From a virus, in the IMG/VR virus record IMGVR_UViG_2600255067_000001, positions 5,011-69,010 of that record: a stretch of 64,000 nt of DNA. One strand, given 5' to 3'. Below the pieces are notes generated by a model. That model was not told the DNA's origin. It searched no databases and worked only from the letters and a program-made list of their open reading frames with translations. Below, one piece after another: positions 171 through 63,285 of this stretch; position 1 is the stretch's first letter, and every line of letters begins with the position of its first letter. Position numbers and translations under genes: made by a program.

Positions 171-1163
171 TTATTCAAACATTTCGGCGTCTTCTCGCAG
201 ATACTGTCGCGCCTCGTCGAAGATCGCGAGATCACGGGCAGCAAGCTTGCGGTTGTCCGACAGCACACGACGCCAGCCTCGTGCGCCGGCCACGCCACGG
301 TACAAGCCAAGCGCGTGGCGCGTCATCGCGCCGAGATAGGTGCCGCGCGCGAGTTCGGTTGCACAGTACTCGACGAGCCTCGCCTCCACCTCCGCGCGGC
401 TCGGCGCTGCGGCAGTCGAGCCGTAGAAACGCGCATCGACGTCCGCGAGCACATACGGGTTGTGATACGCCTCGCGCCCGAGCATCACACCGTCGACGTG
501 CTCCAGGTGCATCGCCACTTCGTCGAGCGTCTTGATCCCACCGTTGATGACGATCTCGAGTTGCGGAAAGTCGCGCTTTAACCGATACGCGTACTCGTAC
601 TTCAGCGGCGGGATCTCGCGATTCTCCTTTGGGCTCAATCCTTTAAGGATCGCGTTGCGCGCGTGCACGATGAAAACGTTGCAGCCGGCCTCGGCCACCG
701 TGCCGACGAAGTCGCGTACGAAGCCGTATTCCTCGACGGCATCCACGCCGATCCGATGCTTCACCGTGACGGGCACCGACACTACGTCGCGCATCGCCTT
801 CACGCAGTCCGCGACGAGCTGCGGCTCGTTCATCAGGCACGCGCCGAATGCGCCGCGCTGTACCCGCTCGGACGGGCAGCCGCAGTTGAGGTTGATCTCG
901 TCGTAACCCCACTGCTCGCCGAGCCGCGCCGCGCGCGCGAGATCGTCCGGTTCGCTGCCGCCCAGTTGCAGCGCGACGGGCGCCTCCTCGGGCGTAAAGG
1001 CCAGATGGCGAGCGACGTCGCCATAGATCAGCGCGCCCGTCGTCACCATCTCGGTATAGAGCCACGTGTGGCGCGACACGAAACGGTGGAAGGTACGGCA
1101 ATGGCGATCGGTCCAGTCCATCATCGGGGCAATGCTAACGCGCCTTTTCGACCTTTTTTCCAT
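171..1163 (-). CDS. dusA: tRNA-dihydrouridine synthase A (DusA). Codons 1 to about 13 (N-terminus) are supplied by the prophage.
   Basis: 330 aa, full-length Dus TIM-barrel-like sequence (motifs GxxxNxGCP, KHRIG). Its 5' end abuts the prophage integrase, and a second diverged copy of its first ~50 nt sits at the other prophage end. Confidence 0.85.
   Translation of the reverse strand: MEKRSKRRVSIAPMMDWTDRHCRTFHRFVSRHTWLYTEMVTTGALIYGDVARHLAFTPEEAPVALQLGGSEPDDLARAARLGEQWGYDEINLNCGCPSERVQRGAFGACLMNEPQLVADCVKAMRDVVSVPVTVKHRIGVDAVEEYGFVRDFVGTVAEAGCNVFIVHARNAILKGLSPKENREIPPLKYEYAYRLKRDFPQLEIVINGGIKTLDEVAMHLEHVDGVMLGREAYHNPYVLADVDARFYGSTAAAPSRAEVEARLVEYCATELARGTYLGAMTRHALGLYRGVAGARGWRRVLSDNRKLAARDLAIFDEARQYLREDAEMFE
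1118..1128. repeat. attL core (tccatcatcgg) inside the dusA 5' coding region
   Basis: Identical 11-mer at 62773-62783. Flanks match 29/35 (ggtccagtccatcatcggggcaatgctaacgcgcc vs agtccaatccatcatcggcgccacgctgacgcggc). Confidence 0.65.
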
Positions 1164-1319
1164 GAACCTATATCTTTCAACAACTTAGAGCGCTATCAAA
1201 ACGATAACAGACGTGATAACATTTCCGCCATCCGTTAGCATTCATCCGGTCATCCACATAGCAACTGCTGCAACAACTGCTGCAACGTGCTTCAATGGCC
1301 CGGGGGACAAGAGGGCACG

Positions 1320-2474
1320 ATGGCGACTTTCACTCAACGCGGCAACAAGTGGACGGCACAGATTCGAATCGCCGGCCACCCATCCGTCACCAAGACATTT
1401 CCGAAGAAAGCGCACGCTGAGCAATGGGCCAAGCGCACCGAGACGCAGATGCGCGACGGAGCCTTCCAAGACGAAAGGAAACTGTCGAATTTTACCATCG
1501 GTGACCTGATCGACAGGTACGTGAACGATGTCGGCGGTCTGAGGCCGTTCGGAAAGTCCAAGCGTGGTGCGCTGGACATGCTCAAGCGCCACTTGGGCGC
1601 TACCCCGGTGGCAAAGTTCAGCGGCACCACGGTCATTGAATACGCGAAGGCGCGACATCAGCCACGCCCAAAGCGTGGCGGCGCACCGGGCGAGATGGAA
1701 CCCGGTGCCGGGCCCGTCACCATCAGCGTGGAACTGTCGTACCTCGGCACCGTCTTCAAGATCGCGCGCGCCCTATGGGGCATGCCCGCGCCCACGCAGG
1801 CGCTTGACGACGCCCGCGAGACCCTGCGTCACCTCGGGCTCATTGCAAAGTCGAAGGAGCGCGACCGCCGGCCGACGCTCGACGAGATCGAGCGCATCTG
1901 TGACTTCTTCGATGCCAAGCCTCGGCAAAGGATTCCCATGCGGGACATCATCCACTTCGCGATCTGGACGACCATGCGCAGCAGCGAAATCACGCGGCTA
2001 CGTTGGGCCGACCTGAACGAGGCGGACAGAACGATCATTATTCGGGACCGAAAGCACCCCGAGGAAAAGGTCGGCAACGATCAAACGGTGCCCCTGCTCG
2101 GCCCGGCATTCGACCTGGTCATGCGGCAGCCGCGCCGCGCGCTCGCCGCTGAACTGGCGGCAGAAATCGCTCTCAACAAAGACCCGCTGCGCCAGCCGCA
2201 CCCCGACGAACTGATCTTTCCGTATCGGGCCGCGACTATCTCGTCCATCTTCCCGCGCGCCTGCGAGGAACTGAAGATTACCGATTTGCACTTCCACGAT
2301 CTGCGGCACGAGGGCATTTCCAGGCTCTTCGAGATGGGCTATCGAATCGAACAGGTCGCGCTCGTGAGCGGGCACCGCGACTGGAAGATGTTGAAGCGCT
2401 ACACCCAGGTAAAAGCCAAGGACTTGCACCGCCCACCACACCACCAACAGGCGGCGCTGTCCATCGCAGCATAG
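1320..2474 (+). CDS. int: Tyrosine recombinase (phage integrase), DusA-associated type
   Basis: C-terminal catalytic motifs ...HDLRHEGISRLFEMGYRIEQVALVSGHRDWKMLKRYTQ (R..H..R..Y). RBS AGAGGG lies before ATG at 1320 (ORF track 1287..2474). Positioned directly upstream of the dusA 5' end. Confidence 0.85.
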   Translation: MATFTQRGNKWTAQIRIAGHPSVTKTFPKKAHAEQWAKRTETQMRDGAFQDERKLSNFTIGDLIDRYVNDVGGLRPFGKSKRGALDMLKRHLGATPVAKFSGTTVIEYAKARHQPRPKRGGAPGEMEPGAGPVTISVELSYLGTVFKIARALWGMPAPTQALDDARETLRHLGLIAKSKERDRRPTLDEIERICDFFDAKPRQRIPMRDIIHFAIWTTMRSSEITRLRWADLNEADRTIIIRDRKHPEEKVGNDQTVPLLGPAFDLVMRQPRRALAAELAAEIALNKDPLRQPHPDELIFPYRAATISSIFPRACEELKITDLHFHDLRHEGISRLFEMGYRIEQVALVSGHRDWKMLKRYTQVKAKDLHRPPHHQQAALSIAA

Positions 2475-2663
2475 CGGATTCGCTAATACATTATCAAAAC
2501 AGTTTGCATAACTGCACGGACGGAACTAACATGTACGCACACGCATTAGCGTGCCCACGGCAACCACACGCCGTTGCATCGTACAGACGCTCTATGCGGT
2601 AGCCTTTCGGCCGCCGAAATGCGTTCTGGATGAACGGCAATCGGCGACAAAGGAGAAAGAGCG

Positions 2664-3059
2664 ATGTCTGGAACCCATGACGTAGTCACGCGCGAGGCCG
2701 ACGAAGAACGCATCGCGGCATGCCTCGAAGCGTGCGCCGGGCTCAGCACCGAAGCTCTGAAGAACGGCGTTATTCACAAGATGATTTCCACCCTCGACAG
2801 CGCGAACAACGCACTGGAACAGTGGGCGGCTATGGCGATTGCTGGCGTTCCGGCGGGATTCACTCCGGTGATCGTCGGCCTTCCGCAGATCGGGCAGGAT
2901 CACCAGCAGATCATCGAGAAGCGAGGCTCAGAGATTTCGGTAATTGCGTGGCGCCCCATTCCGGGTGAGTCGGTTGGCAGTCCTGATTATCAAGGACAAG
3001 CGGATTCGCCTTCGATTGCCGAACCCAAGCCACCGGGTGGCGAGCGGGTGGCGTCATGA
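2664..3059 (+). CDS. Hypothetical protein
   Basis: 131 aa ORF with RBS AAAGGAGAAAG, high GC3, and an acidic C-terminus. Confidence 0.55.
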   Translation: MSGTHDVVTREADEERIAACLEACAGLSTEALKNGVIHKMISTLDSANNALEQWAAMAIAGVPAGFTPVIVGLPQIGQDHQQIIEKRGSEISVIAWRPIPGESVGSPDYQGQADSPSIAEPKPPGGERVAS

Positions 3060-3286
3060 GCGACGCCCCTATCCCGCTGGGGGATGAATTCCTCCCCACC
3101 GATCCACCGCGGCTGACGCTGCTCGACTACTACGCGGCACATGTGGACGTGCAGATTTACCGCCCCATCGAAACATTGCTGGCGAGGCTTGGACGTCCAC
3201 CGAGCATGAGCGAACTCGCCGCATACGTCGCCGAACTGCGCCTCATGGAGGCACAGGCGATCATGAAGGCTCGGGAGATATCGTGA
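3056..3286 (+). CDS. Hypothetical protein
   Basis: 76 aa ORF, translationally coupled (ATGA overlap) to the upstream gene. Confidence 0.5.
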   Translation: MSDAPIPLGDEFLPTDPPRLTLLDYYAAHVDVQIYRPIETLLARLGRPPSMSELAAYVAELRLMEAQAIMKAREIS

Positions 3287-3629: not shown

Positions 3630-4145
3630 TCAGCGGGCCGCAGCAGCTTCGCTCGCGGCCCACTCCTGCCACCGCTTGATCACTGCGGCGTTTGCGCGGC
3701 AACCGGTGAGGTTTTCGGTGTCGGTGCGGGCAACGTCTTGGGCTGGAACGGGCGCTGCATGAGTTCCGCCGGCGGCGTCGGGAAGCGGCATACCTGTGGC
3801 GGCAGCGTCGTAGAGCACGCGGAAAGAGCCAGGAAGATCGGGAGTAGTAGCCGGGACATAGAACGGCACCTTTTGGTAGATGGTTTTTCCTTGGTCGTGG
3901 ATCACCTTCAGTTGCGTGACGACCTTCGTTTGAACCTGCGTCGTCACGGCGCCCTGCTTCGCGTCCACCTTCTGCACAGCCTTCGCCGTTGCGACCTTCT
4001 CTGCTTGCCACTGCGTCGTCACGCGTGCGGCACCGAAATGCCACCCGAGCGCGAACAGCACGAAGGCAACGAGGGCCACGAGAGCGATGCGCCAGTGCGC
4101 GCCGACCGCGCGCAACGCTGCCACGATTGCGGTGATGATGAACAT
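3630..4145 (-). CDS. Rz-like i-spanin (lysis protein B type)
   Basis: 171 aa with an N-terminal hydrophobic anchor and a long periplasmic Q/K/T-rich coiled coil (TTQWQAEKVATAKAVQKVDAKQG...). It is the last gene of the lysis cassette. Confidence 0.55.
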   Translation of the reverse strand: MFIITAIVAALRAVGAHWRIALVALVAFVLFALGWHFGAARVTTQWQAEKVATAKAVQKVDAKQGAVTTQVQTKVVTQLKVIHDQGKTIYQKVPFYVPATTPDLPGSFRVLYDAAATGMPLPDAAGGTHAAPVPAQDVARTDTENLTGCRANAAVIKRWQEWAASEAAAAR

Positions 4146-4147
4146 GG

Positions 4148-4357
4148 TCAGCCCCCGAGTTTCTTGCCGGCGCCCACGGACGCAATCAGCACGCCGACGC
4201 CCACGCCGTACTGTTGCAAATCGAACGGCTTGCCGGTGAGTACCGAGTACACCTCGAGCCCCATGCCGAGCACGAACGCAGCGGCACCGAGCGCATAGGC
4301 CGGTTCCAACGTCTTGTTGTCGTCGCCTGTGACGAGTTCCATCAGTTTTTGCAGCAT
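4148..4357 (-). CDS. Small two-TM membrane protein, putative holin
   Basis: 69 aa, two hydrophobic helices (LGAAAFVLGMGLEVYSV / VGVGVLIASVGAG) and a charged C-terminus. Sits between lysozyme and Rz-like genes. Confidence 0.5.
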   Translation of the reverse strand: MLQKLMELVTGDDNKTLEPAYALGAAAFVLGMGLEVYSVLTGKPFDLQQYGVGVGVLIASVGAGKKLGG

Positions 4358-4364
4358 GACGTCC

Positions 4365-4928
4365 TCAATGGGTCAACTGGCTGTGCATCTCGTCTGCCGA
4401 GAACACGAAGCCGGGGGTGCGCGGAAAGGCCTGGAAGAGCCACACGGGGAGGCTCATGGCGTGGATACCGTGGTCCTTGTGGCGGTGGAATTTCGAGTGC
4501 AGGACGAGCATGTTCGCCATGCTGTCGACGAATGTCTCGGGATGCGCCGGGTCGAAGGCGTGCCAGTCGAAACCGCGCGCGGCTGCGAGCGTGACGATGA
4601 TCCAAAGCAGCGACTGGCGGGCGTCATACGTCTCGCCGGTCGGCTGGTCCGTCTCGATGTCCAGCACCGGCAGAGTGGCAACCTCGCCGATAGCAACGCC
4701 CTTCACGAGGCGCCAGTCGACGGCCCCGCTAAAAGCCCACTCAACGAAGATGTGGTGGTACTCGACGCCCTCCTTCTGGCCGCTGATTGCGCACGGCAAG
4801 CCGGCCGCGTGCCCCGCTTTCTTCGTCGCGCGGAATACGGCCGACTCGGTGCGCGGCGGATGATCGGGATAGAAGACGTCTTCGGTGATGGTGTCGTGGT
4901 GTTCGTGCTCGTGGCTGACGGTCGTCAT
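4365..4928 (-). CDS. Histidine-rich hypothetical protein (MTTVSHEHEHH...EYHHIFVEW...HSKFHRHKDHGIH), possible metal-binding or nuclease
   Basis: High-GC3 ORF beginning at an internal Met of track ORF 4365..5219. Embedded in the lysis cassette and preceded by a hairpin. Confidence 0.45.
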   Translation of the reverse strand: MTTVSHEHEHHDTITEDVFYPDHPPRTESAVFRATKKAGHAAGLPCAISGQKEGVEYHHIFVEWAFSGAVDWRLVKGVAIGEVATLPVLDIETDQPTGETYDARQSLLWIIVTLAAARGFDWHAFDPAHPETFVDSMANMLVLHSKFHRHKDHGIHAMSLPVWLFQAFPRTPGFVFSADEMHSQLTH

Positions 4929-4944
4929 GGGAGGGAGGAATTGA

Positions 4945-4968
4945 AAAAGCCGCCCGGAGGCGGCTTTG
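4945..4968 (-). terminator. Hairpin (gccgcc-tccg-ggcggc) plus T-run between the lysozyme and the His-rich gene. Member of a repeated motif family.
   Basis: aaaaagccgcccggaggcggctttgtgagg. A near-identical element occurs at about 11907-11940. Confidence 0.5.
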
Positions 4969-4990
4969 TGAGGAAGGGAGACGGGATGAG

Positions 4991-5440
4991 CTACGCAGTG
5001 GGCATGACGCCGCTTTCCATCGCTTTGCAGAGGCGTACGGAGCGGTCGCCAACCTGCTTGTACCAGGCCGATGCCTTCATGCCGGCCGCGGCAATGGCGT
5101 AGGCGCCACGCTGGACGGCAGCCAGCGTGTTTTTGAAGCCGAGCAGCTTGTCGACGCCCAGGTTGAAGGCCATGTTGGCAATCACGCGCTGCCGGACCTC
5201 GTCGAGCTTGCGCCACCACGGCAGATGAAGATCGAGCCCGGCGAACGTGACAGTGAGGTCGTGATCCAGAAGTTGGTCAACCTGCGCATCGTTGAGCGGA
5301 AATTTCCACCCCGCAGGCAGCGGCGAGGCGAGCAGGTTGTGCCCTACTCCAGTGGTCGGAATGCCCTTCGTGTCGAGATACTTGACGTAGCGCACGCCCT
5401 CGTCACGACGCAGTTCCTTGTCCATCAAATCGAGGTTCAT
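4991..5440 (-). CDS. Phage lysozyme (T4-lysozyme-like, GH24 endolysin)
   Basis: 149 aa with motifs EGVRYVKYLDTKGIPTTGVGHNL and ANMAFNLGV, characteristic of lysozyme family endolysins. Confidence 0.8.
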   Translation of the reverse strand: MNLDLMDKELRRDEGVRYVKYLDTKGIPTTGVGHNLLASPLPAGWKFPLNDAQVDQLLDHDLTVTFAGLDLHLPWWRKLDEVRQRVIANMAFNLGVDKLLGFKNTLAAVQRGAYAIAAAGMKASAWYKQVGDRSVRLCKAMESGVMPTA

Positions 5441-5757
5441 TTCTTGTCCGCCTTCGCATCGAGCTTGTCGTCGATGCGTTCGAGCTTCGCGAACACGGCC
5501 TTGATGGCGTCGTTGAAGGCGTCGATAGCCTTTTGCATTTGCGTGTTCGGAACGTAGGTTTCGGCCACGTGCAACTTGTGGTCAGCCAGGGCGTCTTTCA
5601 GCGCGACTATCTGCTTGTGAGCGCCCTCAATCGCTTCGTCGCGCTTTACGTCACGCGCATCCGCCTGCGACTGCTGCCGACGGAATAGCCACCAAACAAC
5701 GGTGCCGGCGCCAGTGGCGGCCGTGCACCCGACTGCGGCTACGGAAGCCCAATCCAT
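5437..5757 (-). CDS. Lysis-associated membrane protein (N-terminal TM plus coiled coil; holin, antiholin or spanin-like)
   Basis: 106 aa. Has an N-terminal TM (VAAVGCTAATGAGTVVWWLF) followed by a charged helical region. It is the first gene of the lysis cassette and its end overlaps the lysozyme start. Confidence 0.5.
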   Translation of the reverse strand: MDWASVAAVGCTAATGAGTVVWWLFRRQQSQADARDVKRDEAIEGAHKQIVALKDALADHKLHVAETYVPNTQMQKAIDAFNDAIKAVFAKLERIDDKLDAKADKK

Positions 5758-55377: not shown

Positions 55378-55380
55378 CAG

Positions 55381-55949: not shown

Positions 55950-55990
55950 AATTAGCGCTGCCGTGGTTGCGCCTCAAAGCGCAAACACTT

Positions 55991-56018
55991 GGGGACCGTC
56001 TAGGCGGTCCCTTTTTTT
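55991..56018 (+). terminator. Rho-independent terminator
   Basis: ggggaccgtctaggcggtccc followed by ttttttt. Confidence 0.7.
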
Positions 56019-56027
56019 CATACTTTT

Positions 56028-56068
56028 TTGCTAACGTTGTTGCACACACGTTATTTCGTTGCTAATAT
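56028..56068 (+). promoter_or_regulatory. Tandem overlapping sigma-70-like promoters (TTGCTA-17-TTATTT and TTGCAC-17-TAATAT) with conserved motif
   Basis: tTTGCTAacgttgttgcacacacgTTATTTcgttgcTAATATtcg. Confidence 0.45.
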
Positions 56069-56125
56069 TCGTTCCATCACAACCGGTGCAAAAAGCACCA
56101 CAAACCACGGCAAAAAGGAACGACG

Positions 56126-56356
56126 ATGAACAACAAGAACTTCCGCATAATATCGAGCCCGCTCAGGCCCGTAAGCTACCTGCTCGCGACCGGCGGCGTA
56201 GGCTTCGGGTATGAGGCAGACGGGCACGTCATGATTGAAGCGGGTGGCACGTTCGCACCCATCGAGGTCGAGAAGTATTTGCAGGACAACGGCGCGGCAT
56301 TCGAAGTCGCTCGTACGCACGGCCTCAAGGCCGGCCGCGCCCGGTTCAACGCGTGA
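56126..56356 (+). CDS. Hypothetical protein
   Basis: 76 aa, RBS AAAAAGGAA. Confidence 0.45.
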   Translation: MNNKNFRIISSPLRPVSYLLATGGVGFGYEADGHVMIEAGGTFAPIEVEKYLQDNGAAFEVARTHGLKAGRARFNA

Positions 56357-56364
56357 GGTCCGCC

Positions 56365-56637
56365 ATGACGACCACTCGCGAACAGTTCTATCAGGTGCGC
56401 CGCGCGCACCGCGAGATGCGCAGCGCGCTCAAGCTCCAGTGCGCATCGGCCTCTCGCATGGCGTTCCGTGCCGCAATCATGCGCATGGCGCCGATCAGCC
56501 TGCCTATCGACGTGGCCCGCGCCGCAGTCGAAAGCATAATACCGGGGCACGACTGGTTCCCTTCCCTCACGCAAGCAATCGAGCGTCAACAACGACGCGC
56601 GCTTTCGCTCGCCAGTCGTGCTAACGCGTGTGCATGA
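56365..56637 (+). CDS. Hypothetical protein
   Basis: 90 aa MTTTREQFYQVRRAHREMRSALKLQ... Confidence 0.4.
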   Translation: MTTTREQFYQVRRAHREMRSALKLQCASASRMAFRAAIMRMAPISLPIDVARAAVESIIPGHDWFPSLTQAIERQQRRALSLASRANACA

Positions 56638-56673
56638 TCGTTACCAACCTGCGTTAAAGAGAGGATCACCACG

Positions 56674-57276
56674 ATGAAGATCAATGCAACAGCGTCGGCG
56701 TTCAAGGCGCTCCAGATAATAGCCCCGCGCGACGACATCCGTTACTACCTGAACGGTGTCTATGTCGAAGCGAAAGCGGGCGAAACGAGACTTGTCGCGA
56801 CGGACGGCCACCGCCTGGCGGTCTACCGCATCGAGTGCAATAACGATGTTCCAGACGGTCAAGCTGTATCGCTGATCGTGCCGAACTCCGTAATTGAACG
56901 CCTGCGCGTTAGCCGCACGTCGCCCGATGAAGTCGAAATCGGGTGGCTTGACGACGGGCGCGCCTACGTCTCGCACGACGATGTCCGCATCGCGTTCACA
57001 CCGACCGAAGGCAAGTTTCCCGACTACCGCAAGGTGATACCGCGGACCTTCACCAACACGCCAGGCAACTACAACCCGAGCTACCTCGCGGACTTCCAGA
57101 AGGTCGGCGCGGCACTGAAGCGGCAGCGCGGCCTTTCCAATGTCTACGTCGCTATGCGACAGAACGGCGAAAGCGGCGCATTGGTCACGGTCGCTGGGCT
57201 CGACAACTTCGCTGGCGTCGTGATGCCGCAGCGAATCGGCGATTCGCCATCCGTTGCATGGGCGACGATGCAATGA
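56674..57276 (+). CDS. Truncated DNA polymerase III beta-clamp homologue (DnaN domain II plus a minimal domain III)
   Basis: 200 aa. DIRYYLNGVYVEAKAGETRLVATDGHRLAV and GKFPDYRKVIPR align with the E. coli DnaN domain II motifs DVRYYLNGMLFE...LRTVATDGHRLAV and GRFPDYRRVLPK. The C-terminal VVMPQRI matches the DnaN terminus VVMPMRL. Confidence 0.65.
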   Translation: MKINATASAFKALQIIAPRDDIRYYLNGVYVEAKAGETRLVATDGHRLAVYRIECNNDVPDGQAVSLIVPNSVIERLRVSRTSPDEVEIGWLDDGRAYVSHDDVRIAFTPTEGKFPDYRKVIPRTFTNTPGNYNPSYLADFQKVGAALKRQRGLSNVYVAMRQNGESGALVTVAGLDNFAGVVMPQRIGDSPSVAWATMQ

Positions 57277-57377
57277 CGCCCTTCCTCTGCGAACTGGAAC
57301 GCCGTCACCCCATCGCATTCGCGATTGGCGGCGCACTCATCATCACTGCGGTCGTGCTGCTCGCGACCGCCACCTGA
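57273..57377 (+). CDS. Candidate hydrophobic micro-protein between the clamp-like gene and rtcB
   Basis: 34 aa MTPFLCELERRHPIAFAIGGALIITAVVLLATAT, ATGA overlap with the upstream stop, high GC3. Confidence 0.3.
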   Translation: MTPFLCELERRHPIAFAIGGALIITAVVLLATAT

Positions 57378-57385
57378 GACCCACC

Positions 57386-58582
57386 ATGAAGCAAGTCATT
57401 CACGAAGACGGCGCGCGGCCCGTCAAGGTCTGGACGAACGAAATCGAGGACGAAGCGTTGCAGCAGGCGAAGAACCTCGCTCGACTGCCGTTCATCCACC
57501 ACAACGGCGTGTCGCTCATGCCCGACGTCCACGCCGGCAAAGGTTCGACCATCGGCTCGGTGATTGCGACCGAGAAGGCGATCATCCCGGCGGCCGTGGG
57601 CGTCGATATCGGTTGCGGCATGAACGCTGTGCGACTTTCGCTGAAGGCGTCGGACCTCCCGGAAAGTCTCACCGCTATCCGGCATCAGATCGAGCGCGAC
57701 ATTCCGCTCGGCGCGGGCGGCCAGCATCAGCGGCCCGAAGACGTGCCGGCGATGCCTACAGCCTTCCTCGAGATGTTGTCGATGATCGCGGCGAAGCATC
57801 CCGGCATCGGCCGAGGTCTTGAAGCGAAGGCGGCGAAGCAGCTCGGTTCACTCGGTTCGGGAAACCACTTCATCGAACTCTGCCTCGACGAGAACGAAGA
57901 CGTGTGGGTGATGCTGCACAGCGGATCGCGCGGCATCGGCAACATGATCGGGACGTACTTCATCGAGCGTGCGAAGAAAGCCATGCGTGGATGGTTCGTC
58001 AACCTTCCCGACGCGGACCTCGCCTATCTGCCCGAAGACACCGACGACTTCAACGCCTATGTGCAGGCAGTCGAATGGGCGCAGGAATACGCCCTCGCCA
58101 ATCGGGCCGTGATGATGGATCGCGTCATTGCGGCACTGCGCCGCCATATCCCCGTCGAGTTCACGATCACGCAGGAAGCGATCAACTGCCACCACAACTA
58201 CATCGCGCGCGAGAACCACTTCGGCCGCAACCTGTGGGTGACTCGCAAGGGTGCGATTCGCGCGCGCGAAGGCGACCTCGGCATCATCCCCGGCTCGATG
58301 GGCCAGCGGAGCTACATCGTGCGCGGCAAGGGCGAATTGCAGTCGTACTGCTCGTGCTCGCACGGCGCCGGCCGACGCATGAGTCGCGCGAAGGCGCGGA
58401 AGCTCTTCAGCGTCGACGACCTCAAAGCGCAGACGGATGGCGTCGAGTGCCGCAAAGACGACGCCGTGCTCGACGAAATCCCGGCGGCCTACAAGGACAT
58501 CGACACGGTGATGGAGAACCAGCGCGACCTGGTCGAAGTCGTGCACGTGCTGAAGCAGGTTCTCTGCGTCAAGGGGGCCTAA
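57386..58582 (+). CDS. rtcB: RtcB RNA ligase
   Basis: 398 aa with MPDVHAGKG, GSGNHF, HSGSRG, NCHHNY and SCSHGAGR metal/GTP-binding motifs diagnostic of RtcB. Confidence 0.85.
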   Translation: MKQVIHEDGARPVKVWTNEIEDEALQQAKNLARLPFIHHNGVSLMPDVHAGKGSTIGSVIATEKAIIPAAVGVDIGCGMNAVRLSLKASDLPESLTAIRHQIERDIPLGAGGQHQRPEDVPAMPTAFLEMLSMIAAKHPGIGRGLEAKAAKQLGSLGSGNHFIELCLDENEDVWVMLHSGSRGIGNMIGTYFIERAKKAMRGWFVNLPDADLAYLPEDTDDFNAYVQAVEWAQEYALANRAVMMDRVIAALRRHIPVEFTITQEAINCHHNYIARENHFGRNLWVTRKGAIRAREGDLGIIPGSMGQRSYIVRGKGELQSYCSCSHGAGRRMSRAKARKLFSVDDLKAQTDGVECRKDDAVLDEIPAAYKDIDTVMENQRDLVEVVHVLKQVLCVKGA

Positions 58583-58585
58583 GCC

Positions 58586-58774
58586 ATGGGAGCCCGAAGC
58601 CTCTTTTCTCTCGCCGGCGCGGTCATTGCGGCAGCCGGCAAAGCGTGGCGCAACGCCGTGCCGCGCCCCGCCCTTCCGGCGCCGACTACCAGGACCAAGC
58701 GCGTCCGTCCGCGCCGGGTCACCTACGAACAGCGCGTGCGTGATCGCCTGCGCGCATCTGGAAAGGTGATGTGA
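58586..58774 (+). CDS. Small basic protein
   Basis: 62 aa, RBS AAGGGGG, Arg/Pro-rich C-terminus. Confidence 0.4.
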   Translation: MGARSLFSLAGAVIAAAGKAWRNAVPRPALPAPTTRTKRVRPRRVTYEQRVRDRLRASGKVM

Positions 58775-59265
58775 TGCCCGCGAGCAAAAAGCCACGTAAG
58801 CGGTATCGCCCGCGCGCTGCGGGCGCGGACATAGCAATGGGGCCGATAGGGCGCGCGATGCAAGCGCGCATTGACCGCGAGCCCATGACCGAAGATCAAG
58901 CGCGAGACCTCGGCATCGCCTACCACGTCGCGCTCGAGTGCATGCTCCGCGGCACGGGAGACGAAGAGTCGTGGTCGACGGTCACGTGCTCGCTGAACAT
59001 CGCGCTCGTGCTCGCCGAGCGCGGCATCGGCGCCGAGTACGAGCCGACTCTCGTACGCGCACTTGATGGCGCGTTCCGCGCGAAGCTGCGAGCACAACGG
59101 ACGGCCCGGTGGGCATACGACGGCGACGCCATCAACGACATCCGCGAAGCGTTCGCGCTCCACGACGAGCAGATGAAAGTCGCTCTCGTCGGCGAGGTGC
59201 GCGCGGCGCTTCGCGAGGTGCATCGGCGCATCGACGCCGGCAACGTGTACCGGGAGGCAGCATGA
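58771..59265 (+). CDS. Hypothetical protein
   Basis: 164 aa ORF with basic N-terminus. Confidence 0.5.
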   Translation: MMPASKKPRKRYRPRAAGADIAMGPIGRAMQARIDREPMTEDQARDLGIAYHVALECMLRGTGDEESWSTVTCSLNIALVLAERGIGAEYEPTLVRALDGAFRAKLRAQRTARWAYDGDAINDIREAFALHDEQMKVALVGEVRAALREVHRRIDAGNVYREAA

Positions 59266-60338
59266 CCATGACGAAAGGGCGGATCGAGCGCGCGGGCCGC
59301 GTCGTGTTCCACGATTCCGAATTACGCGTGTGGGAAGAAGGCATTCCGCGCGAATGGAATGCTGCGCGCGCGTGGGAACGCCAGTTCAAGCGCGACGTGT
59401 TCGCACGCATTGTGCAGACGCTCAACCGACTCGGCTGGACATGCGTTGTCCCGCCAGAGATGGTCAAGCAGTATGGCAAGAACTTTGCCGAAGACTACCG
59501 ATACTGCCGCAAGGGCGATCTGCAGGCCGAGCTTTCCCTCTCGGGGCGCTGCATCGAATTCGAGATGTGGCAGGACGTGCAGAACGGTAGCAATCCGAAC
59601 GGCGGCAAGTACGACTTCGACAAAGCATCCCGTATGACGTACCTGCAGCGCCTCGAGATGGAGCGCACGCGCCGGCGCATCCGCGACTATCTGTGCAACG
59701 TCTTCACCGGTTACGAATTCGAGTCGCCTCGAAATCCCGAGATTGGCGTGATGGGCATGACAGCCGAGGAATATGCCGAGCATAGCCGTCGCACGAGTGG
59801 CCATTATGTGCCCGAACTTGGCCGCGCTCGCATTTACCCTGGATCGCGCAACGATATTGCACGCGATGGCGGCACCATCGAGCACGGCGCTAAGGTATGG
59901 GCGATTGACCGCAAAGGCCGAATCGTCACCGGAACGGCCTACTACAGCCTGAATAACAACTGGCACATTGTCACCGGCAAATACGGGCTGCTCTATGCAC
60001 ACACGGGCGAGATATTCGCGAGCCGCCCCGACAACCTGCGGGTAAAACGCAACATGCGTGAGCGCCGCAAGCGACTTGAGCGCGAACTTGCGAAGGCGGT
60101 CGAGCAGATGAACTACGAGAGGGCCGCGACGCTGCGCGACATTCTATTTCCTGGCAACCCTGATCTGTTCAACGTATGGCACGACGAGCACCAGATGTAC
60201 CACTGCTCGGATTTCTGCGGTTATACGCGCGATCAATCGAAGGCCGGAAAGTTCACGGCCGACGAGGTCCGCGAATGGAACCGTGCGCCGAACAAGGTCA
60301 TACCGATCAGGCGAGAAGCCGAGATGGAGGCAGCGTGA
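59262..60338 (+). CDS. Hypothetical protein with UVR-like motif
   Basis: 358 aa (MTMTKGRIERAG...). ...RERRKRLERELAKAVEQMNYERAATLRDILF resembles the UvrB/UvrC UVR motif. Confidence 0.5.
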   Translation: MTMTKGRIERAGRVVFHDSELRVWEEGIPREWNAARAWERQFKRDVFARIVQTLNRLGWTCVVPPEMVKQYGKNFAEDYRYCRKGDLQAELSLSGRCIEFEMWQDVQNGSNPNGGKYDFDKASRMTYLQRLEMERTRRRIRDYLCNVFTGYEFESPRNPEIGVMGMTAEEYAEHSRRTSGHYVPELGRARIYPGSRNDIARDGGTIEHGAKVWAIDRKGRIVTGTAYYSLNNNWHIVTGKYGLLYAHTGEIFASRPDNLRVKRNMRERRKRLERELAKAVEQMNYERAATLRDILFPGNPDLFNVWHDEHQMYHCSDFCGYTRDQSKAGKFTADEVREWNRAPNKVIPIRREAEMEAA

Positions 60339-60742
60339 TCGACTTCTTAGGAGGTACCGCCACGAACCAGCCATCTCAAGCCGCCCCTGCGCTGACGTTC
60401 GAAAAGATGTGCGCCGACATCAAGAAGGTGATGGACGAACTCGACGCATGCGAACCGACGCGAGAAGCATCGCTACCTTTCGGCATCCCGATTTTCGAGA
60501 ATCGGTGCGTGGCCGCTGACTTTGCGCGGCCGGCGAGGGTCCACAAGCGACGCCGCTGGATGAGCGACGCCTACCACCGGCGGGTGCAGAAGAAGTGGAC
60601 GAAGCGCTTCGGCTATCAGCCGGACGAAACCGTCGTCTACCTAGTCAATCCGCCAGCGCTTGGCATCGCAGCCGGACCGTGTCTGATCATGAGTCCGGTC
60701 GCGCTCGCGAAGGTCCGCGCAGCACAGGGAGCCATCGTATGA
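60335..60742 (+). CDS. Hypothetical protein (GTG start)
   Basis: 135 aa, RBS GGAGG, GTGA overlap with the upstream gene. Confidence 0.45.
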   Translation: MIDFLGGTATNQPSQAAPALTFEKMCADIKKVMDELDACEPTREASLPFGIPIFENRCVAADFARPARVHKRRRWMSDAYHRRVQKKWTKRFGYQPDETVVYLVNPPALGIAAGPCLIMSPVALAKVRAAQGAIV

Positions 60743-60867
60743 AAACCATCTTGGCAGTTGTCGGCGGCGGCATCCTCGCGCTCGCCACGCTCGGCTTGAT
60801 CGGCGTCGGGCACTTCCGCATCTACTACGGCGACAAGCCGTTGACGTGCTGGCGAGGTGAGGCATGA
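60739..60867 (+). CDS. Small membrane peptide
   Basis: 42 aa MKTILAVVGGGILALATLGLIGVGHFRIYYGDKPLTCWRGEA. Confidence 0.35.
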   Translation: MKTILAVVGGGILALATLGLIGVGHFRIYYGDKPLTCWRGEA

Positions 60868-61103
60868 GCACGCGCACACTCATCGAGATTAACCACGATC
60901 TGCTGCACCGGCTGCAGGACGACCCGTCGATTATGGCGCGCATCCTGGACGACCTCGGCTGCACGCGATACAACGCCGAACTGAACCGCGCGAACGAAGA
61001 AGGGAAGCCGCTCCAGCTCGCGAGCGGCGTCACGCTCGTTCTTCAGCGGCATCACTCGGAATACATCACGGTCAAGACCCGATACGTCAAGGTGAGGCTA
61101 TGA
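60864..61103 (+). CDS. Hypothetical protein
   Basis: 79 aa ORF. Confidence 0.45.
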   Translation: MSTRTLIEINHDLLHRLQDDPSIMARILDDLGCTRYNAELNRANEEGKPLQLASGVTLVLQRHHSEYITVKTRYVKVRL

Positions 61104-61471
61104 GCAAGACCAATGAGTTTCCGAGCCCGCTCAACGAAGGGCCTCCCTATGACCCTGTACTAGCGCGACTAGCTGTTGAGAGCGTGCGCGCGGCCCATGC
61201 CGCAAAGCGTCCGTATGTCCACATCGAGGACGCCATCGAATTGCTGAAGTGGGTTTGCTTGCCAAGCGAAATTGGCGGTAACCCGCTGCCCGCCATGATC
61301 GAGCGGGCTCGACAACTGGTGACCGCGGAGAGAGCGATTAAGTGGCGCCCCGATCATTTCGAATCGCAGACCGTACGGTACTACCAACTCACGGAAGACG
61401 ACTTGACCAAGCTTCTGTCGCTGATGCGAGCCGATGCTATTAATCAGGTGAAAAATGGGGTGTTGCCGTGA
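61100..61471 (+). CDS. Hypothetical protein
   Basis: 123 aa ORF. Confidence 0.5.
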   Translation: MSKTNEFPSPLNEGPPYDPVLARLAVESVRAAHAAKRPYVHIEDAIELLKWVCLPSEIGGNPLPAMIERARQLVTAERAIKWRPDHFESQTVRYYQLTEDDLTKLLSLMRADAINQVKNGVLP

Positions 61472-61827
61472 AGTCCTTCCCCATCTACCCCGAGACGTTC
61501 GCCGCGATGTGCACCGATCGCGCCGGCCAGAAGTATCGGCCGAGCAACGGCACCGAGGGCGAGGTCTTCTTCGACGCGTGGTGTCGGCAGTGCGCGCGGG
61601 ACCGGTCAATGAGCGAAGGCGAAAGCGTAGACGAGTGCGACGACAACGAAGTGTGCGGGATCATTGCGCGCACGTTCGCTCACGACATCGACGACCCGGA
61701 ATATCCGCGCGAGTGGCAATACGGGCCGGACGGCCAGCCGCGCTGCACGGCGTACGTTGAAGCGGGACGACCAGTTCCGCCGCCGCGGTGTACGCGCACC
61801 GCGGACATGTTCGGAGGGGGCGATTGA
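61468..61827 (+). CDS. Hypothetical Cys-rich protein
   Basis: 119 aa ...FDAWCRQCARDRS...CDDNEVCG... Confidence 0.45.
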   Translation: MKSFPIYPETFAAMCTDRAGQKYRPSNGTEGEVFFDAWCRQCARDRSMSEGESVDECDDNEVCGIIARTFAHDIDDPEYPREWQYGPDGQPRCTAYVEAGRPVPPPRCTRTADMFGGGD

Positions 61828-62054
61828 TGCGATCAAGCGGCCTGAAACATGAACTGGAAGGTCTGAGGCGGAACATCGCCCGGACCGATGCCAACATGGG
61901 GGAACTGGCAAGCGACTTTTGGGCGAACGGCGGTGTGTGCTGCCCATCCTGCGGTGTGCCGGGCTATTCCGAATTGGAACTCAAGCAGGAGCGCCGCGAG
62001 CAGCGTGTGAAGGAGATCATTGCCAAGCTGAAGCGGGACGGAGGGAGCGAGTAA
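61827..62054 (+). CDS. Small CxxC protein
   Basis: 75 aa ...GGVCCPSCGVPGYSE... Confidence 0.4.
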   Translation: MRSSGLKHELEGLRRNIARTDANMGELASDFWANGGVCCPSCGVPGYSELELKQERREQRVKEIIAKLKRDGGSE

Positions 62055-62356
62055 TGCAAGACGACATGTTCGCCGATCTGCTTGCCCCGGCACCCGAGCC
62101 CGAAGTACCGCCGGCACCGGCTGCGCCGGATATCACGGTCGACGATCTGCCAGAGAAGCTGAGAGCGCAGCCGTTGGCGATGCACGCGCGCAAGCCCGAA
62201 GGTGGCCCACAACTCGACGAGTGGACCCGCGTTACTCAGCGACTCTATCTGCTGTGGCTCGTCGGGACGCTGGCGCGCAACACCTATAGGGATTCGAGCA
62301 TCGTCAACGCGCGCCAGGTGCTGAGGAAGCTTAACGGCCTCGGGGGCGAATGGTGA
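62054..62356 (+). CDS. Hypothetical protein
   Basis: 100 aa, Pro/Ala-rich N-terminus. Confidence 0.45.
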   Translation: MQDDMFADLLAPAPEPEVPPAPAAPDITVDDLPEKLRAQPLAMHARKPEGGPQLDEWTRVTQRLYLLWLVGTLARNTYRDSSIVNARQVLRKLNGLGGEW

Positions 62357-62613
62357 ACGCCCTCTTCCTGCTCATGGGCCGCTTCGACTGTCGGCCGATG
62401 CTCACGCTCGACGAGGTGTGCGAGGCCGTCGGCTACGAGAAAAACACCGCCTACAACGACCTGAGCAACGGGCTCTTCCCGATACCACTACGCAAGCAGG
62501 GAAAGCGACTGTTCGCGGACGTGCGGGACGTTGCCGAATACCTTGACGCGATGCGCGAGAAGGTGAAGGCCGCGCATACGGCGCACCGTCAAAAGATGGG
62601 TCTCGACCAGTGA
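62350..62613 (+). CDS. AlpA-family regulator / excisionase (Xis-like)
   Basis: 87 aa ...MLTLDEVCEAVGYEKNTAYNDLSNGLFPIP...KRLF..DVAEYL (AlpA/MerR-like HTH). Last prophage gene, adjacent to attR. Confidence 0.65.
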   Translation: MVNALFLLMGRFDCRPMLTLDEVCEAVGYEKNTAYNDLSNGLFPIPLRKQGKRLFADVRDVAEYLDAMREKVKAAHTAHRQKMGLDQ

Positions 62614-62640
62614 CGCGGCAGTGTCGGTCTGTCCAACCAA

Positions 62641-62668
62641 GGCCCGGCTATACGCCGGGCTTTTTCTT
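62641..62668 (+). terminator. Rho-independent terminator after the xis-like gene
   Basis: ggcccggctatacgccgggc followed by tttttc. Confidence 0.6.
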
Positions 62669-62772
62669 TCCCACTGCAGCATGGCGCTACGACTGTGGCA
62701 AAACTGCTACAACAGCGCAAAAAAATCTGGCAGAGCCTTATCTGACGCGGCTCTCACGACTCATTCAGTCCA

Positions 62773-62830
62773 ATCCATCATCGGCGCCACGCTGACGCGG
62801 CGAGGACTGGGGGAGCGGGAAAGAGACATA
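62773..62830 (-). pseudogene. dusA: attR core plus displaced original 5' end of dusA (remnant encoding ...RSPSPRRVSVAPMMDWTE*)
   Basis: The reverse complement translates in frame to a DusA N-terminus paralogous to the phage-supplied MEKRSKRRVSIAPMMDWTD. The 11-bp core is identical to attL. Confidence 0.6.
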
Positions 62831-63285
62831 GGAAAAGCAGATGGGACAGCGGGTGAGCCGGCGGAGCGCACAACCCGGCTGCATAACCCGGCTGCACAAC
62901 CGGGCTGCAAACCGGACCGCACGACACTAATCAGCCCGTAATTCTACCGCAAGCCGTGCAGGCGACTTCCCCGCGCCAAGATCTGTCACTTTCGCCGCAC
63001 AACGGCGCTCGACACGGATTGCCGCACTGCAAAACCCCTCTCCCAGTATGTAATCTGCCTGCGTCGAAAAACGCGGTTTTTGGGGCTGAATCACCGGAAA
63101 CGCATGCTGGCATTGGTCTCCAGCATTGTTTCCCGGTCTAGAACAGTAAATTCGGATTATCGTGATTATTTTCCAATAGTAGGTGTTTACACTGAGCATC
63201 ACTGACGTAGCTCACGGGCACTACCGCACCACCCTCGGCGCCGCGTCATTCCGAAATGCAGTTGAACCTGATTGGAGTTGACACC

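What the first reader, a model, noticed from the sequence alone, without database searches (positions are those of the whole stretch)
1100..62840. Prophage integrated in the 5' end of dusA, with a phage-supplied replacement N-terminus and the original 5' end displaced 61.7 kb away
dusA here starts MEKRSKRRVSIAPMMDWTDRHCRTF and is immediately flanked by a tyrosine integrase. At 62766-62830 the reverse strand encodes a second diverged copy, ...RSPSPRRVSVAPMMDWTE*, which terminates at a stop inside the repeat. The two share an 11-bp identical core (tccatcatcgg) and 29/35 identity overall. This matches the described behaviour of DusA-associated integrases, which restore the disrupted gene with phage-encoded codons. 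Here dusA expression must come from a promoter inside the prophage (1164-1286), which is inference. The element is complete and plausibly inducible.
Basis: partly seen in the sequence, partly recalled or inferred. Interest (0 to 1): 0.55.

Follow-up and report, generated by a model that had tools for sequence, protein, structure and literature searches.

The report
Prophage inserted in dusA gene start
A 61.7-kb tailed prophage sits inside the start of the tRNA-modification gene dusA of Paraburkholderia kururiensis and supplies a substitute gene start, which is a clear but ordinary example of a behaviour described in 2015.

Summary
dusA (171-1163, minus strand) starts with a foreign N-terminus, MEKRSKRRVSIA. 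A tyrosine integrase (1320-2474) lies divergently beside it. The original dusA start, MSLSRSPSPRRVSVAPMMDWTE*, survives at 62761-62829 (minus strand). The two att copies share the 11-bp core TCCATCATCGG (1117-1127 and 62774-62784) and 29 of 35 bases.

Deleting 1128-62784 in silico gives a sequence colinear with the unoccupied dusA locus of two other P. kururiensis genomes. Their DusA begins with exactly the remnant's residues.

The integrase has the catalytic residues. It is 36-38% identical to the integrases of phages BcepMigl, BcepIL02 and H66, which Farrugia et al. 2015 list among the phage-genome hits to the DusA-associated integrase. BcepMigl and two unintegrated viral contigs carry an intact attP with a short dusA mimic (...APMMDWT(D/E)*) divergent from the integrase gene. 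In the two viral contigs it lies just after an excisionase/PrtN-like gene.

The interior is a full myovirus-type prophage. A 99.7% identical copy over the 11 kb held occurs in at least one other read set.

The phage promoter for dusA and inducibility are not shown.

Verdict: a correct finding and a new member of a known kind, so low interest.

The parts
10..85 (-). Host tRNA-His(GTG), downstream neighbour of dusA. It marks host DNA on the left of the element.
   Evidence: ARAGORN; Rfam tRNA, 65 bits.
171..1163 (-). dusA as it now stands (330 aa). Codons 1 to about 13 (1128-1163) are phage DNA, the core encodes P-M-M-D, and the rest is host DNA.
   Evidence: Pfam Dus 9e-83. Aligns with T. thermophilus Dus 3b0p from residue 8 onward. 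Native alleles are 333 aa.
1117..1127 (.). attL core TCCATCATCGG (dusA side). The wider semi-conserved repeat is 1108-1144.
1128..1319 (.). Phage arm between the core and the integrase start. It holds the replacement dusA start codons (1128-1163). It also holds two TGCTAACG motifs in inverted orientation (1133-1140 and 1233-1240), GTTATC(AC) motifs (1203, 1214) and a tandem CAACTGCTGCAA x2 (1262-1285), which may be arm-type integrase sites. Any promoter for dusA and for int should lie here.
   Evidence: No sigma-70 consensus hit in this stretch.
1320..2474 (+). Tyrosine integrase related to DusA-associated integrases (384 aa from the ATG at 1320; a GTG at 1287 is also possible).
   Evidence: Pfam Phage_integrase 8e-22. 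R220, H326, R329, H352 and Y361 are invariant in the alignment with the BcepMigl, H66 and PS6 integrases. tblastn gives 36-39% identity over at least 95% of its length.
3630..5757 (-). Lysis region: spanin-like signal-peptide protein (3630-4145), endolysin (4991-5440) and small ORFs.
   Evidence: PHROGs. Pfam Phage_lysozyme on the 149-aa homologue in L085.
6886..8025 (-). Group-1 glycosyltransferase next to the tail-fibre gene; a possible lysogenic-conversion gene.
   Evidence: Pfam Glycos_transf_1 1.5e-12.
8262..20545 (-). Contractile-tail module: tail fibre (8262-10016), baseplate proteins (10089-14147), tape measure (15113-17182) and sheath (19025-20545).
   Evidence: PHROGs. DNA match to the Ralstonia phage sheath gene.
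20810..32008 (-). Head and packaging module: putative major capsid (23746-24738, weak hit), portal (28037-29443), large terminase (29383-30816), DUF2280 protein (30806-31309), which I take to be the small terminase from its position and my recollection of that family, and phage metallopeptidase (31352-32008).
   Evidence: PHROGs; Pfam.
32804..36374 (.). Four prophage tRNA genes: Lys-CTT 32804-32891(+), Gly-TCC 35378-35452(-), Thr-TGT 35454-35531(-) and Met-CAT 36298-36374(-). The span also holds a NinI-like phosphatase (33851-34570, -) and a RelE/ParE-like toxin with an HTH partner (34639-35374, +).
36977..62356 (+). Early, replication and recombination region: DnaD/O-like initiator (38345-39493), two DNA methyltransferases (40123-42310), SPFH protein (45337-46137), RecT-like annealing protein (52897-54060), exonuclease (54397-55377), RusA (56674-57276) and RtcB RNA ligase (57254-58582).
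   Evidence: PHROGs; Pfam; DNA matches.
62350..62613 (+). Excisionase / PrtN-like HTH protein, the last phage gene before attR. It is followed by a terminator-like hairpin at 62639-62663.
   Evidence: PHROG excisionase 5e-9. Pfam HTH_17 and PyocinActivator both fall below their gathering cut-offs. Homologues lie directly upstream of attP in L081 and L082. Hairpin.
62703..62713 (+). ACTGCTACAAC, a copy of the repeat found twice next to int. Candidate arm-type integrase site on the other attP arm.
   Evidence: The pattern has 5 copies against 0.05 expected.
62774..62784 (.). attR core TCCATCATCGG. The wider repeat is 62765-62801.
62761..62829 (-). Displaced original 5' end of dusA: 22 codons, MSLSRSPSPRRVSVAPMMDWTE, ending at a phage-supplied stop codon.
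   Evidence: Read from the sequence. The first 21 residues are identical to native P. kururiensis DusA P0003.
62941..62953 (-). TTGCGGTAGAAT on the dusA strand, the counterpart of the TTGCGGTAAAAT element conserved upstream of native dusA in related species. I read it as the probable native dusA promoter -10 region, now driving only the remnant.
   Evidence: Sequence; conserved element in L001-L019. The promoter reading is inference.

Best explanation
A temperate contractile-tailed phage of about 61.66 kb is integrated in Paraburkholderia kururiensis by a DusA-associated-type tyrosine integrase. The phage attP sits between its excisionase/PrtN-like gene and its divergent integrase gene. It is a short imitation of the dusA 5' end: start codon, MEKRSKRRVSIAPMMDWTE, then a stop. 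Strand exchange with the chromosomal attB took place inside the shared 11-bp CCGATGATGGA, which covers the codons for P-M-M-D. The result is that the phage-borne start codons are fused in frame to the body of dusA, so a near-native 330-aa DusA is encoded with the first beta-strand motif RVS(I/V)AP kept. The native 22-codon start, still behind its own promoter, is stranded 61.7 kb away and closed by the phage stop codon. Shown here: the structure, the precise junctions, the empty allele, the intact attP in relatives and the integrase relationship. Inferred: that the hybrid dusA is expressed from a phage-supplied promoter in 1164-1319, that the Xis/PrtN-like protein directs excision, and that the prophage is still inducible.
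For: Identity of dusA and the integrase. Both N-termini. The repeat is far beyond chance and occurs only twice.

Eleven related Paraburkholderia species have an uninterrupted dusA with an MS...SPRRVSVAPMMDWTDRHCR start. They also have the window's right-flank homologue directly upstream.

Conspecific empty sites: the native 333-aa DusA of P. kururiensis begins with the remnant's 21 residues. The in-silico excised window aligns in one colinear block (2341 nt, 95.8%) with L083 and L084.

Mapping of the crossover: lysogens L085 and L086, whose relatives have the T allele, show GGATTGGAC at attL. The window has C on the host side (attL) and T on the phage side (attR), with a G/C difference on the other side of the core. 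Exchange therefore lay within the 11 bp.

Intact attP with a dusA mimic lies about 150-200 bp upstream of, and divergent from, int in IMG/VR contigs L081 and L082 (int 49-50% identical; Xis homologue adjacent) and in the isolated phage BcepMigl.

The integrase is 36-39% identical over at least 95% of its length to those of BcepMigl, BcepIL02 and H66, and the catalytic R, H-x-x-R, H and Y are conserved. Farrugia et al. 2015 (PMC4482086) name those phage genomes among the hits to the A. baumannii DusA-associated integrase. The paper also describes the replaced 5' end, the att repeats over the same codons, and PrtN homologues in 64% of islands.

A full virion, lysis, replication and recombination gene set is present. 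The copy in a second strain is 99.7% identical over 11 kb with the same gene sizes.
Against: No sigma-70 consensus promoter was detected between dusA and int, so expression of the hybrid dusA is unproven. NCBI-derived gene calls for this genome also include a 317-aa version starting at the internal MMDW (P0006). No CI-like repressor was recognised: the only HTH regulator found looks like the partner of a RelE/ParE-like toxin. The major capsid assignment is weak (Pfam E 0.006, below cut-off). No read-level or contig-level attP junction of this particular phage was found. Excision is suggested only indirectly, by contig breaks.
Confidence: 0.93

Rival explanations
1. The element is a defective or domesticated prophage, or a tailocin-like remnant or genomic island, that once used the dusA site but can no longer excise or form particles.
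For: No repressor or lysogeny switch was identified. The capsid assignment is weak. Farrugia et al. report that about half of dusA islands are non-phage islands or remnants, with very low excision frequencies.
Against: Terminase, portal, sheath, tape measure, baseplate, fibre, lysis, replication, integrase and Xis genes are all present as long intact ORFs. A 99.7% identical copy with identical gene lengths occurs in another read set, and conspecific strains lack the element, which points to recent mobility. Contigs from several read sets break exactly where attR and attB would share k-mers.
Confidence: 0.12
2. The two dusA-like copies arose by a local duplication or by target-site duplication of a transposable element. 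On this reading the similarity is not an att pair made by site-specific recombination.
For: The copies are direct repeats flanking a foreign segment, as a target-site duplication would be.
Against: The copies differ at 6 of 35 positions in a pattern that separates cleanly into a host-like and a phage-like half on each side of the core. The phage-like halves are found joined as attP in unintegrated phage genomes. No transposase is present: phrog_513, labelled 'transposase', is a phage metallopeptidase by Pfam. A tyrosine integrase sits beside the site.
Confidence: 0.01
3. The phage-supplied codons are not translated. DusA starts at the internal ATG-ATG (MMDW), so the 'replacement N-terminus' is only integrase-binding DNA that happens to resemble dusA.
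For: A 317-aa gene call starting at MMDW exists for this genome and for others (P0006, P0010). Neither the native nor the phage start has a clear Shine-Dalgarno sequence (read). In L082 no in-frame ATG was seen in the 60 nt examined upstream of the MMDW codons (my reading of the translation).
Against: The residues R-x-S-(V/I/T)-A-P before MMDW are conserved in native DusA across genera. They align with residues 5-10 of the solved T. thermophilus Dus. Farrugia et al. identify them as beta-strand 1 of the TIM barrel. The phage copies in the window and in L081, L031 and L033 keep both the frame and an upstream ATG.
Confidence: 0.08

Closest known systems
dusA-specific prophages and genomic islands with DusA-associated integrases (Farrugia, Elbourne, Mabbutt and Paulsen, Nucleic Acids Res 2015; PMC4482086). 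Examples: Prophage 03 of Pseudomonas protegens Pf-5, D1279779_RGP05 of Acinetobacter baumannii, and the phage lysogens listed for Burkholderia cenocepacia H111 and B. gladioli BSR3.
   Same: The integrase is divergent from and adjacent to the 5' end of dusA. The att repeats cover the same codons: the A. baumannii att sites ...CCTATGATGGATTGGAC and ...CCAATGATGGACTGGAC correspond to CCGATGATGGAYTGGAC here. The 5' end is replaced by element-borne codons that keep beta-strand 1. The remnant 5' end closes soon after MMDWT. A PrtN-like gene lies at the far end. The size is in the reported range, and about half of the reported elements are prophages.
   Different: The host species (P. kururiensis) and this particular phage genome are not in that paper's list as far as the text search showed. 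No close DNA relative exists among 50,697 phage records. The integrase has two lineage-specific insertions, of 12-14 and 22 residues, relative to the three phage integrases aligned with it. Excision was not tested here.
Burkholderia phage BcepMigl / BcepIL02 (Lessievirus) integrase and attP
   Same: The integrase is 37-38% identical over 96% of its length. BcepMigl carries, about 200 bp upstream of and divergent from int, a short ORF ending ...CCAPMMDWTD*, which is the same dusA-mimic attP design.
   Different: I recall these as podovirus-type phages, and that is not checked here. Outside the integrase, the megablast searches found no DNA match to BcepMigl or BcepIL02. The window's prophage has a contractile tail.
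Phages and islands that integrate within protein-coding genes and restore the disrupted end. From my own knowledge: phage 21 in icd, and the dusA-targeting SGI1-related islands of Vibrio (PMC8409611, listed but not read).
   Same: The principle is the same: attP carries a copy of the target gene's end, so the gene stays intact after integration.
   Different: In my recollection (not checked here), phage 21 restores a 3' end and so does not need to supply a promoter or start codon. Here the 5' end, the start codon and presumably the promoter must come from the element.

Membership tests
DusA-associated integrase (DAI) family / dusA-specific mobile elements (Farrugia et al. 2015) | The integrase is a tyrosine recombinase with the R-H-R-H tetrad and the nucleophilic tyrosine. 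| tested here: met
   Pfam Phage_integrase 8e-22. R220, H326, R329, H352 and Y361 are invariant in the alignment with the BcepMigl, H66 and PS6 integrases.
DusA-associated integrase (DAI) family / dusA-specific mobile elements (Farrugia et al. 2015) | Sequence relationship to recognised DAIs. The paper retrieved members by BLASTP, with identities down to 22.8%, and names phages BcepMigl, BcepIL02 and H66 among the phage-genome hits. | tested here: met
   tblastn: BcepMigl 38.0% (5e-65), BcepIL02 36.9% (2e-63), H66 36.4% (1e-65), each over 96% of the query. The best phage hit is annotated 'shufflon-specific DNA recombinase', which fits the Rci relationship reported in the paper. No phylogeny against the original 258 sequences was built.
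DusA-associated integrase (DAI) family / dusA-specific mobile elements (Farrugia et al. 2015) | The integrase gene lies next to the 5' end of dusA. | tested here: met
   The dusA start is at 1163(-) and the int start at 1320(+), 156 bp apart and divergent. The same arrangement occurs with 36-39% identical integrases in L031, L033 and L063.
DusA-associated integrase (DAI) family / dusA-specific mobile elements (Farrugia et al. 2015) | The element is flanked by semi-conserved direct repeats (21-bp consensus) in the conserved 5' region of dusA. | tested here: met
   The repeats at 1108-1144 and 62765-62801 have an 11-bp identical core. They cover the same APMMDWT codons as the published A. baumannii attL and attR. 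The WebLogo consensus itself is a figure and could not be read.
DusA-associated integrase (DAI) family / dusA-specific mobile elements (Farrugia et al. 2015) | The 5' end of dusA is replaced by element-derived sequence, and the wild-type 5' end is regenerated on excision. | tested here: met
   The N-terminus MEKRSKRRVSIA replaces the native MSLSRSPSPRRVSVA. In-silico excision reproduces the conspecific empty allele. Physical excision was not tested.
DusA-associated integrase (DAI) family / dusA-specific mobile elements (Farrugia et al. 2015) | Excision as a circular intermediate with re-formation of attB (shown by PCR in the paper). | not testable with these tools
   Only indirect evidence exists. 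Logan contigs from DRR591296, DRR638551, DRR638555 and DRR638558 all end at the position expected for a k=31 graph branch between attR and attB. Either excision or a mixture of strains would explain this.
DusA-associated integrase (DAI) family / dusA-specific mobile elements (Farrugia et al. 2015) | A PrtN homologue is present. This is frequent (64% of islands) but not defining. | tested here: inconclusive
   The product of 62350-62613 scores 22.5 bits on Pfam PyocinActivator against a cut-off of 24.2, and 23.5 bits on HTH_17 against a cut-off of 27. It matches PHROG excisionase at 5e-9.

The most novel reading that the evidence does not exclude
The phage does more than repair dusA: it takes over its control. 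The 156-bp spacer that now precedes dusA carries two copies of TGCTAACG plus GTTATC(AC) motifs. These same motifs mark promoter-like intergenic regions across the prophage (9 copies of TGCTAACG against 1.3 expected). DusA synthesis, and hence D20/D20a modification of tRNA, could therefore be tied to the phage's own regulator and its lysogeny or lysis state. The phage also carries four tRNA genes and an RtcB RNA ligase, so it may manipulate the host tRNA pool in a coordinated way. None of this is shown. The motifs may just as well serve only int regulation or integrase arm binding.
Probability: 0.1. Interest if true: 0.5.

Novelty: new member of a known kind. Interest (0 to 1): 0.2.

Why it matters
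The finding gives exact boundaries for a 61.66-kb prophage in P. kururiensis, assembly GCA_000739795.1, as located. It adds a cleanly documented case to the dusA-targeting integrase family. A natural C/T polymorphism confines the strand exchange to an 11-bp segment, and conspecific empty and occupied alleles are both available. It does not change what is known about how such elements work. Its practical value lies in annotation: the true dusA start, the prophage limits and the attP design. It also provides a tractable system for asking whether the hybrid dusA is expressed from phage DNA.

Tried and rejected
1. Megablast of the whole element against 50,697 phage records found only scattered gene-sized matches at 72-92% identity (sheath, methyltransferase, RtcB, tRNAs). 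No known phage could be used as an annotated template.

2. The sigma-70 consensus scan found nothing between dusA and int. The only hit in 1000-2700 is at 2497-2468(-), beyond the integrase stop. The promoter claim stays an inference.

3. I considered a crossover in the 5-bp TGGAC to the right of the core, because conspecific empty alleles have T where the window's attL has C. I rejected it: lysogens L085 and L086 show that the same phage gives T at attL in T-allele hosts, so the C is the window strain's own allele.

4. I considered a composite of two elements. I rejected it because there is a single integrase, no third att-like site, and the PHROG 'transposase' is a phage metallopeptidase.

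5. I looked for an attP junction of this very phage through contigs encoding its Xis and integrase. Only integrated forms, or contigs that stop at the att site, were found.

6. P0007 contigs were fetched in the hope of finding attL/attB branch points. They turned out to be ordinary empty sites in metagenomes.

7. Rfam scans of the ORF-poor stretch 35.4-37.0 kb found nothing beyond the four tRNAs.

Full report
**1. What is at the coordinates**

The window is Paraburkholderia kururiensis DNA.
- An identical DusA (P0001) and the same excisionase-like gene lie on contig BBJI01000001.1 of GCA_000739795.1.
- At the left end lie tRNA-His (10-85, minus strand) and dusA (171-1163, minus strand; Pfam Dus 9e-83).
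- dusA translates to MEKRSKRRVSIAPMMDWTDRHCRTF....
- A tyrosine recombinase gene starts 156 bp upstream in the divergent direction (1320-2474; Pfam Phage_integrase 8e-22).
- Near the right end, the reverse strand of 62761-62829 reads MSLSRSPSPRRVSVAPMMDWTE followed by a stop (sequence).

The repeat is as described.
- The 11-mer TCCATCATCGG occurs exactly twice, at 1117-1127 and 62774-62784.
- Over 1108-1142 against 62765-62799 the copies are 29/35 identical, by my count from the alignment printed.
- Thirty shuffles of the window never came closer than 12 mismatches to the 35-mer tested, against 7 observed.
- No third copy exists even with three mismatches allowed in the 17-mer.

**2. Is it an insertion, and is it precise?**

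A scan of species-representative genomes with DusA returned eleven Paraburkholderia species at 85-89% identity.
- In these, dusA is uninterrupted and starts MS...SPRRVSVAPMMDWTDRHCR.
- It is preceded by the homologue of the window's right flank.

Closer evidence came from the protein database.
- P. kururiensis strains carry a 333-aa DusA (P0003-P0005) whose first 21 residues are exactly those of the remnant.
- I fetched two such loci: L083 from GCA_003986935.1 and L084 from GCA_965118185.1.
- The window with 1128-62784 deleted aligns with each in a single colinear block. For L083 this is 2341 nt at 95.8% identity.
- The junction reads ...GTCAGCGTGGCGCCGATGATGGA(C/T)TGGACCGATCGCC....

With one core copy counted, the element is 61,657 bp.

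**3. Where the strands were exchanged**

On the dusA strand the two copies differ immediately on both sides of CCGATGATGGA.
- attL has ...TTGCC|core|CTGGACCGATCG.
- attR has ...GTGGCG|core|TTGGACTGAATGA.

The conspecific empty alleles have T, not C, after the core. That raised the possibility of an exchange further right.

Two more lysogens settle the point. L085 comes from read set SRR31136033 and is 99.7% identical over 11 kb. L086 comes from DRR591306. In their T-allele hosts attL reads GGATTGGACCG.

The C in the window is therefore the host strain's own allele, and the T at attR is the phage's. The exchange is confined to the 11-bp core. This is inference from natural markers, not an experiment.

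**4. The phage origin of the new N-terminus**

Relatives of the integrase in IMG/VR (L081 and L082, 49-50% identity) lie on viral contigs of 63.9 and 46.8 kb that are not integrated.
- About 150 bp upstream of int, on the opposite strand, each carries a short dusA imitation...RMSIAPMMDWT* in L081 and ...RLSTAPMMDWTE* in L082.
- A homologue of the window's last gene, 46-52% identical, lies directly before it.

The isolated Burkholderia phage BcepMigl has an integrase 38% identical to this one. It has the same device, MTNSEVKSVTYSYWRFCCAPMMDWTD*.

Occupied dusA loci in two other genera, Massilia and Herbaspirillum, and in an uncultured betaproteobacterium (L031, L033, L063), show 36-39% identical integrases in the same position. 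Their dusA N-termini also look foreign.

The attP design of Xis, then a dusA mimic with its own stop, then a divergent int is thus seen directly in relatives. For this phage it is reconstructed as window 62614-62784 joined to 1128-1319.

**5. Comparison with what is known**

Farrugia et al. 2015 (PMC4482086) described this behaviour.
- A family of tyrosine recombinases sits at the 5' end of dusA in over 200 genomes.
- Semi-conserved att repeats lie in a conserved dusA region.
- The dusA 5' end is replaced by island sequence, which keeps beta-strand 1 of the TIM barrel.
- The native gene is regenerated on excision.
- prtN homologues occur in 64% of islands, and about half the elements are prophages.
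- Hits in phage genomes include BcepMigl, BcepIL02 and H66.

The published A. baumannii att sites (...CCTATGATGGATTGGAC and ...CCAATGATGGACTGGAC) cover the same codons as the repeats here.

The window's integrase fits the family.
- It is 36-38% identical over 96% of its length to those three phage integrases.
- It keeps R220, H326, R329, H352 and Y361.
- It has two lineage-specific insertions.
- The last phage gene matches PHROG excisionase (5e-9). It matches Pfam PyocinActivator and HTH_17 only below their cut-offs.

All defining features that can be tested in silico are met. Physical excision cannot be tested here. I therefore file the element as a new member of this known kind.

**6. Is the prophage complete?**

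Reading from int, the minus strand carries four blocks.
- A lysis block (spanin-like protein, endolysin).
- A glycosyltransferase.
- Tail genes: fibre, baseplate proteins, tape measure and sheath.
- Head and packaging genes: a weakly supported capsid gene, portal, large terminase and a DUF2280 protein that I take to be the small terminase.

The plus strand from about 32.4 kb carries:
- four tRNA genes within this region (three of them on the minus strand), a RelE/ParE-like toxin with an HTH partner, and a replication initiator;
- two DNA methyltransferases and an SPFH protein;
- RecT, an exonuclease and RusA;
- RtcB and the excisionase-like gene.

There is one integrase and no transposase. The ORFs are long and intact, and the second lysogen has identical gene lengths over the part held.

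I did not recognise a CI-type repressor, so 'inducible' remains plausible rather than shown.

One indirect hint of excision or mixed occupancy exists. Contigs from four or more read sets that carry the right end of this prophage all stop at the equivalent of 62797. That is exactly 30 nt after the first base that attR shares with an empty attB. It is the point where a k=31 assembly graph would branch if both alleles were present.

**7. Expression of the hybrid dusA**

That element is TTGCGGTAAAAT in relatives and TTGCGGTAGAAT at 62941-62953 here.

However, the consensus scan found no sigma-70 match in 1164-1319.

The spacer does contain motifs that recur in the prophage's intergenic, promoter-like regions.
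- TGCTAACG has 9 copies against 1.3 expected, two of them in the spacer.
- GTTATC(AC) motifs are also present.
- A tandem CAACTGCTGCAA has a relative on the other attP arm. The pattern ACTGCTRCAAC has 5 copies against 0.05 expected.

These are candidate regulator and arm-type integrase sites. Their function is inference.

**8. Verdict**

The element is a well-preserved dusA-specific myovirus-type prophage. It has no close relative among the deposited phage genomes searched, but its integration mechanism is already described. Interest is low for the integration itself. The most that could be new is phage control over dusA expression, which the evidence neither supports strongly nor excludes.

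Noticed in passing
window 57254-58582 (+), with tRNAs at 32804-32891 (+), 35378-35452 (-), 35454-35531 (-) and 36298-36374 (-): The prophage encodes an RtcB-type RNA ligase (phrog_1075, E 5e-156) and four tRNAs (Lys-CTT, Gly-TCC, Thr-TGT, Met-CAT). It also encodes a NinI-like phosphatase (33851-34570) and an HD phosphohydrolase (50883-51395). Together these look like a tRNA replacement and repair kit of the kind thought to counter host anticodon nucleases. The tRNA-Lys is unusually long (88 nt).
   Followed up: partly
window 35375-36977: This stretch of about 1.6 kb has almost no convincing ORF. Besides the three called tRNAs it contains tRNA-like segments (about 35536-35700) that neither ARAGORN nor Rfam calls, and long GC-rich hairpins (for example about 36040-36150). 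It ends in a cluster of five GCTAAC/GTTAGC motifs at 36814-36956, just before the early genes. It may hold degenerate tRNAs, small RNAs or the lysogeny-switch operators.
   Followed up: partly
window 1133, 1233, 5856, 36840, 36905, 43022, 52647, 56029, 56619: TGCTAACG occurs 9 times against 1.3 expected. Six copies are intergenic; those at 1133, 43022 and 56619 fall within the first or last few codons of a called gene. None lies in the 28-kb late-gene block. At about 46150-46200 and 52610-52655 the related GCTAAC follows a TTGCAY-N17-TA(T/G)T(C/A)T promoter-like pair with GTTATCAC in the spacer. This is probably the operator or promoter signature of a phage regulator. Two copies lie between dusA and int.
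   Followed up: partly
window 87-97, 1264-1286, 11835-11845, 62703-62713: ACTGCTRCAAC occurs 5 times against 0.05 expected. Three copies lie on the two attP arms and are plausible arm-type integrase sites. One copy lies in host DNA directly upstream of tRNA-His, and it is also present in prophage-free P. kururiensis strains (L083, L087). That host copy is unexplained.
   Followed up: partly
L095-L098 (Logan contigs from DRR591296, DRR638555, DRR638551, DRR638558), equivalent to window 62797: All these contigs end at the same base, 13 nt past the att core. This is the position expected for a k=31 de Bruijn branch between attR and an empty attB. Occupied and empty dusA alleles therefore seem to coexist in those read sets, either through spontaneous excision or through mixed strains.
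   Followed up: partly
window 34639-35374 (+): A RelE/ParE-like toxin (Pfam ParE_toxin 3.6e-6; phrog_1213) is followed by an HTH regulator (phrog_7241). The toxin-first order is HigBA-like. This is a toxin-antitoxin pair carried inside the prophage.
   Followed up: no
window 6886-8025 (-), 40123-42310 (+): A group-1 glycosyltransferase lies beside the tail-fibre gene and may modify the cell surface in lysogens. Two adjacent DNA methyltransferases are also present; one resembles cytosine-specific enzymes of Caulobacter and cyanophage genomes at 77-78% DNA identity.
   Followed up: no
L084 4339-5556 and L087 2839-4002 (other P. kururiensis strains): In prophage-free strains a different integrase (P4-type, with an Arm-DNA-bind_3 domain) sits just beyond tRNA-His, downstream of dusA. 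The dusA/tRNA-His neighbourhood is thus a double hotspot for mobile elements in this species. The window starts at tRNA-His, so its state there is unknown.
   Followed up: no
window 62840-62935: Between the remnant dusA start and the promoter-like TTGCGGTAGAAT lie three tandem copies of about 15 bp of the form CCGGCTGCAYAAC. L083 and L084 are offset from the window by about 14-15 nt in this stretch and appear to carry one copy fewer, so the native dusA leader varies in length within the species.
   Followed up: no
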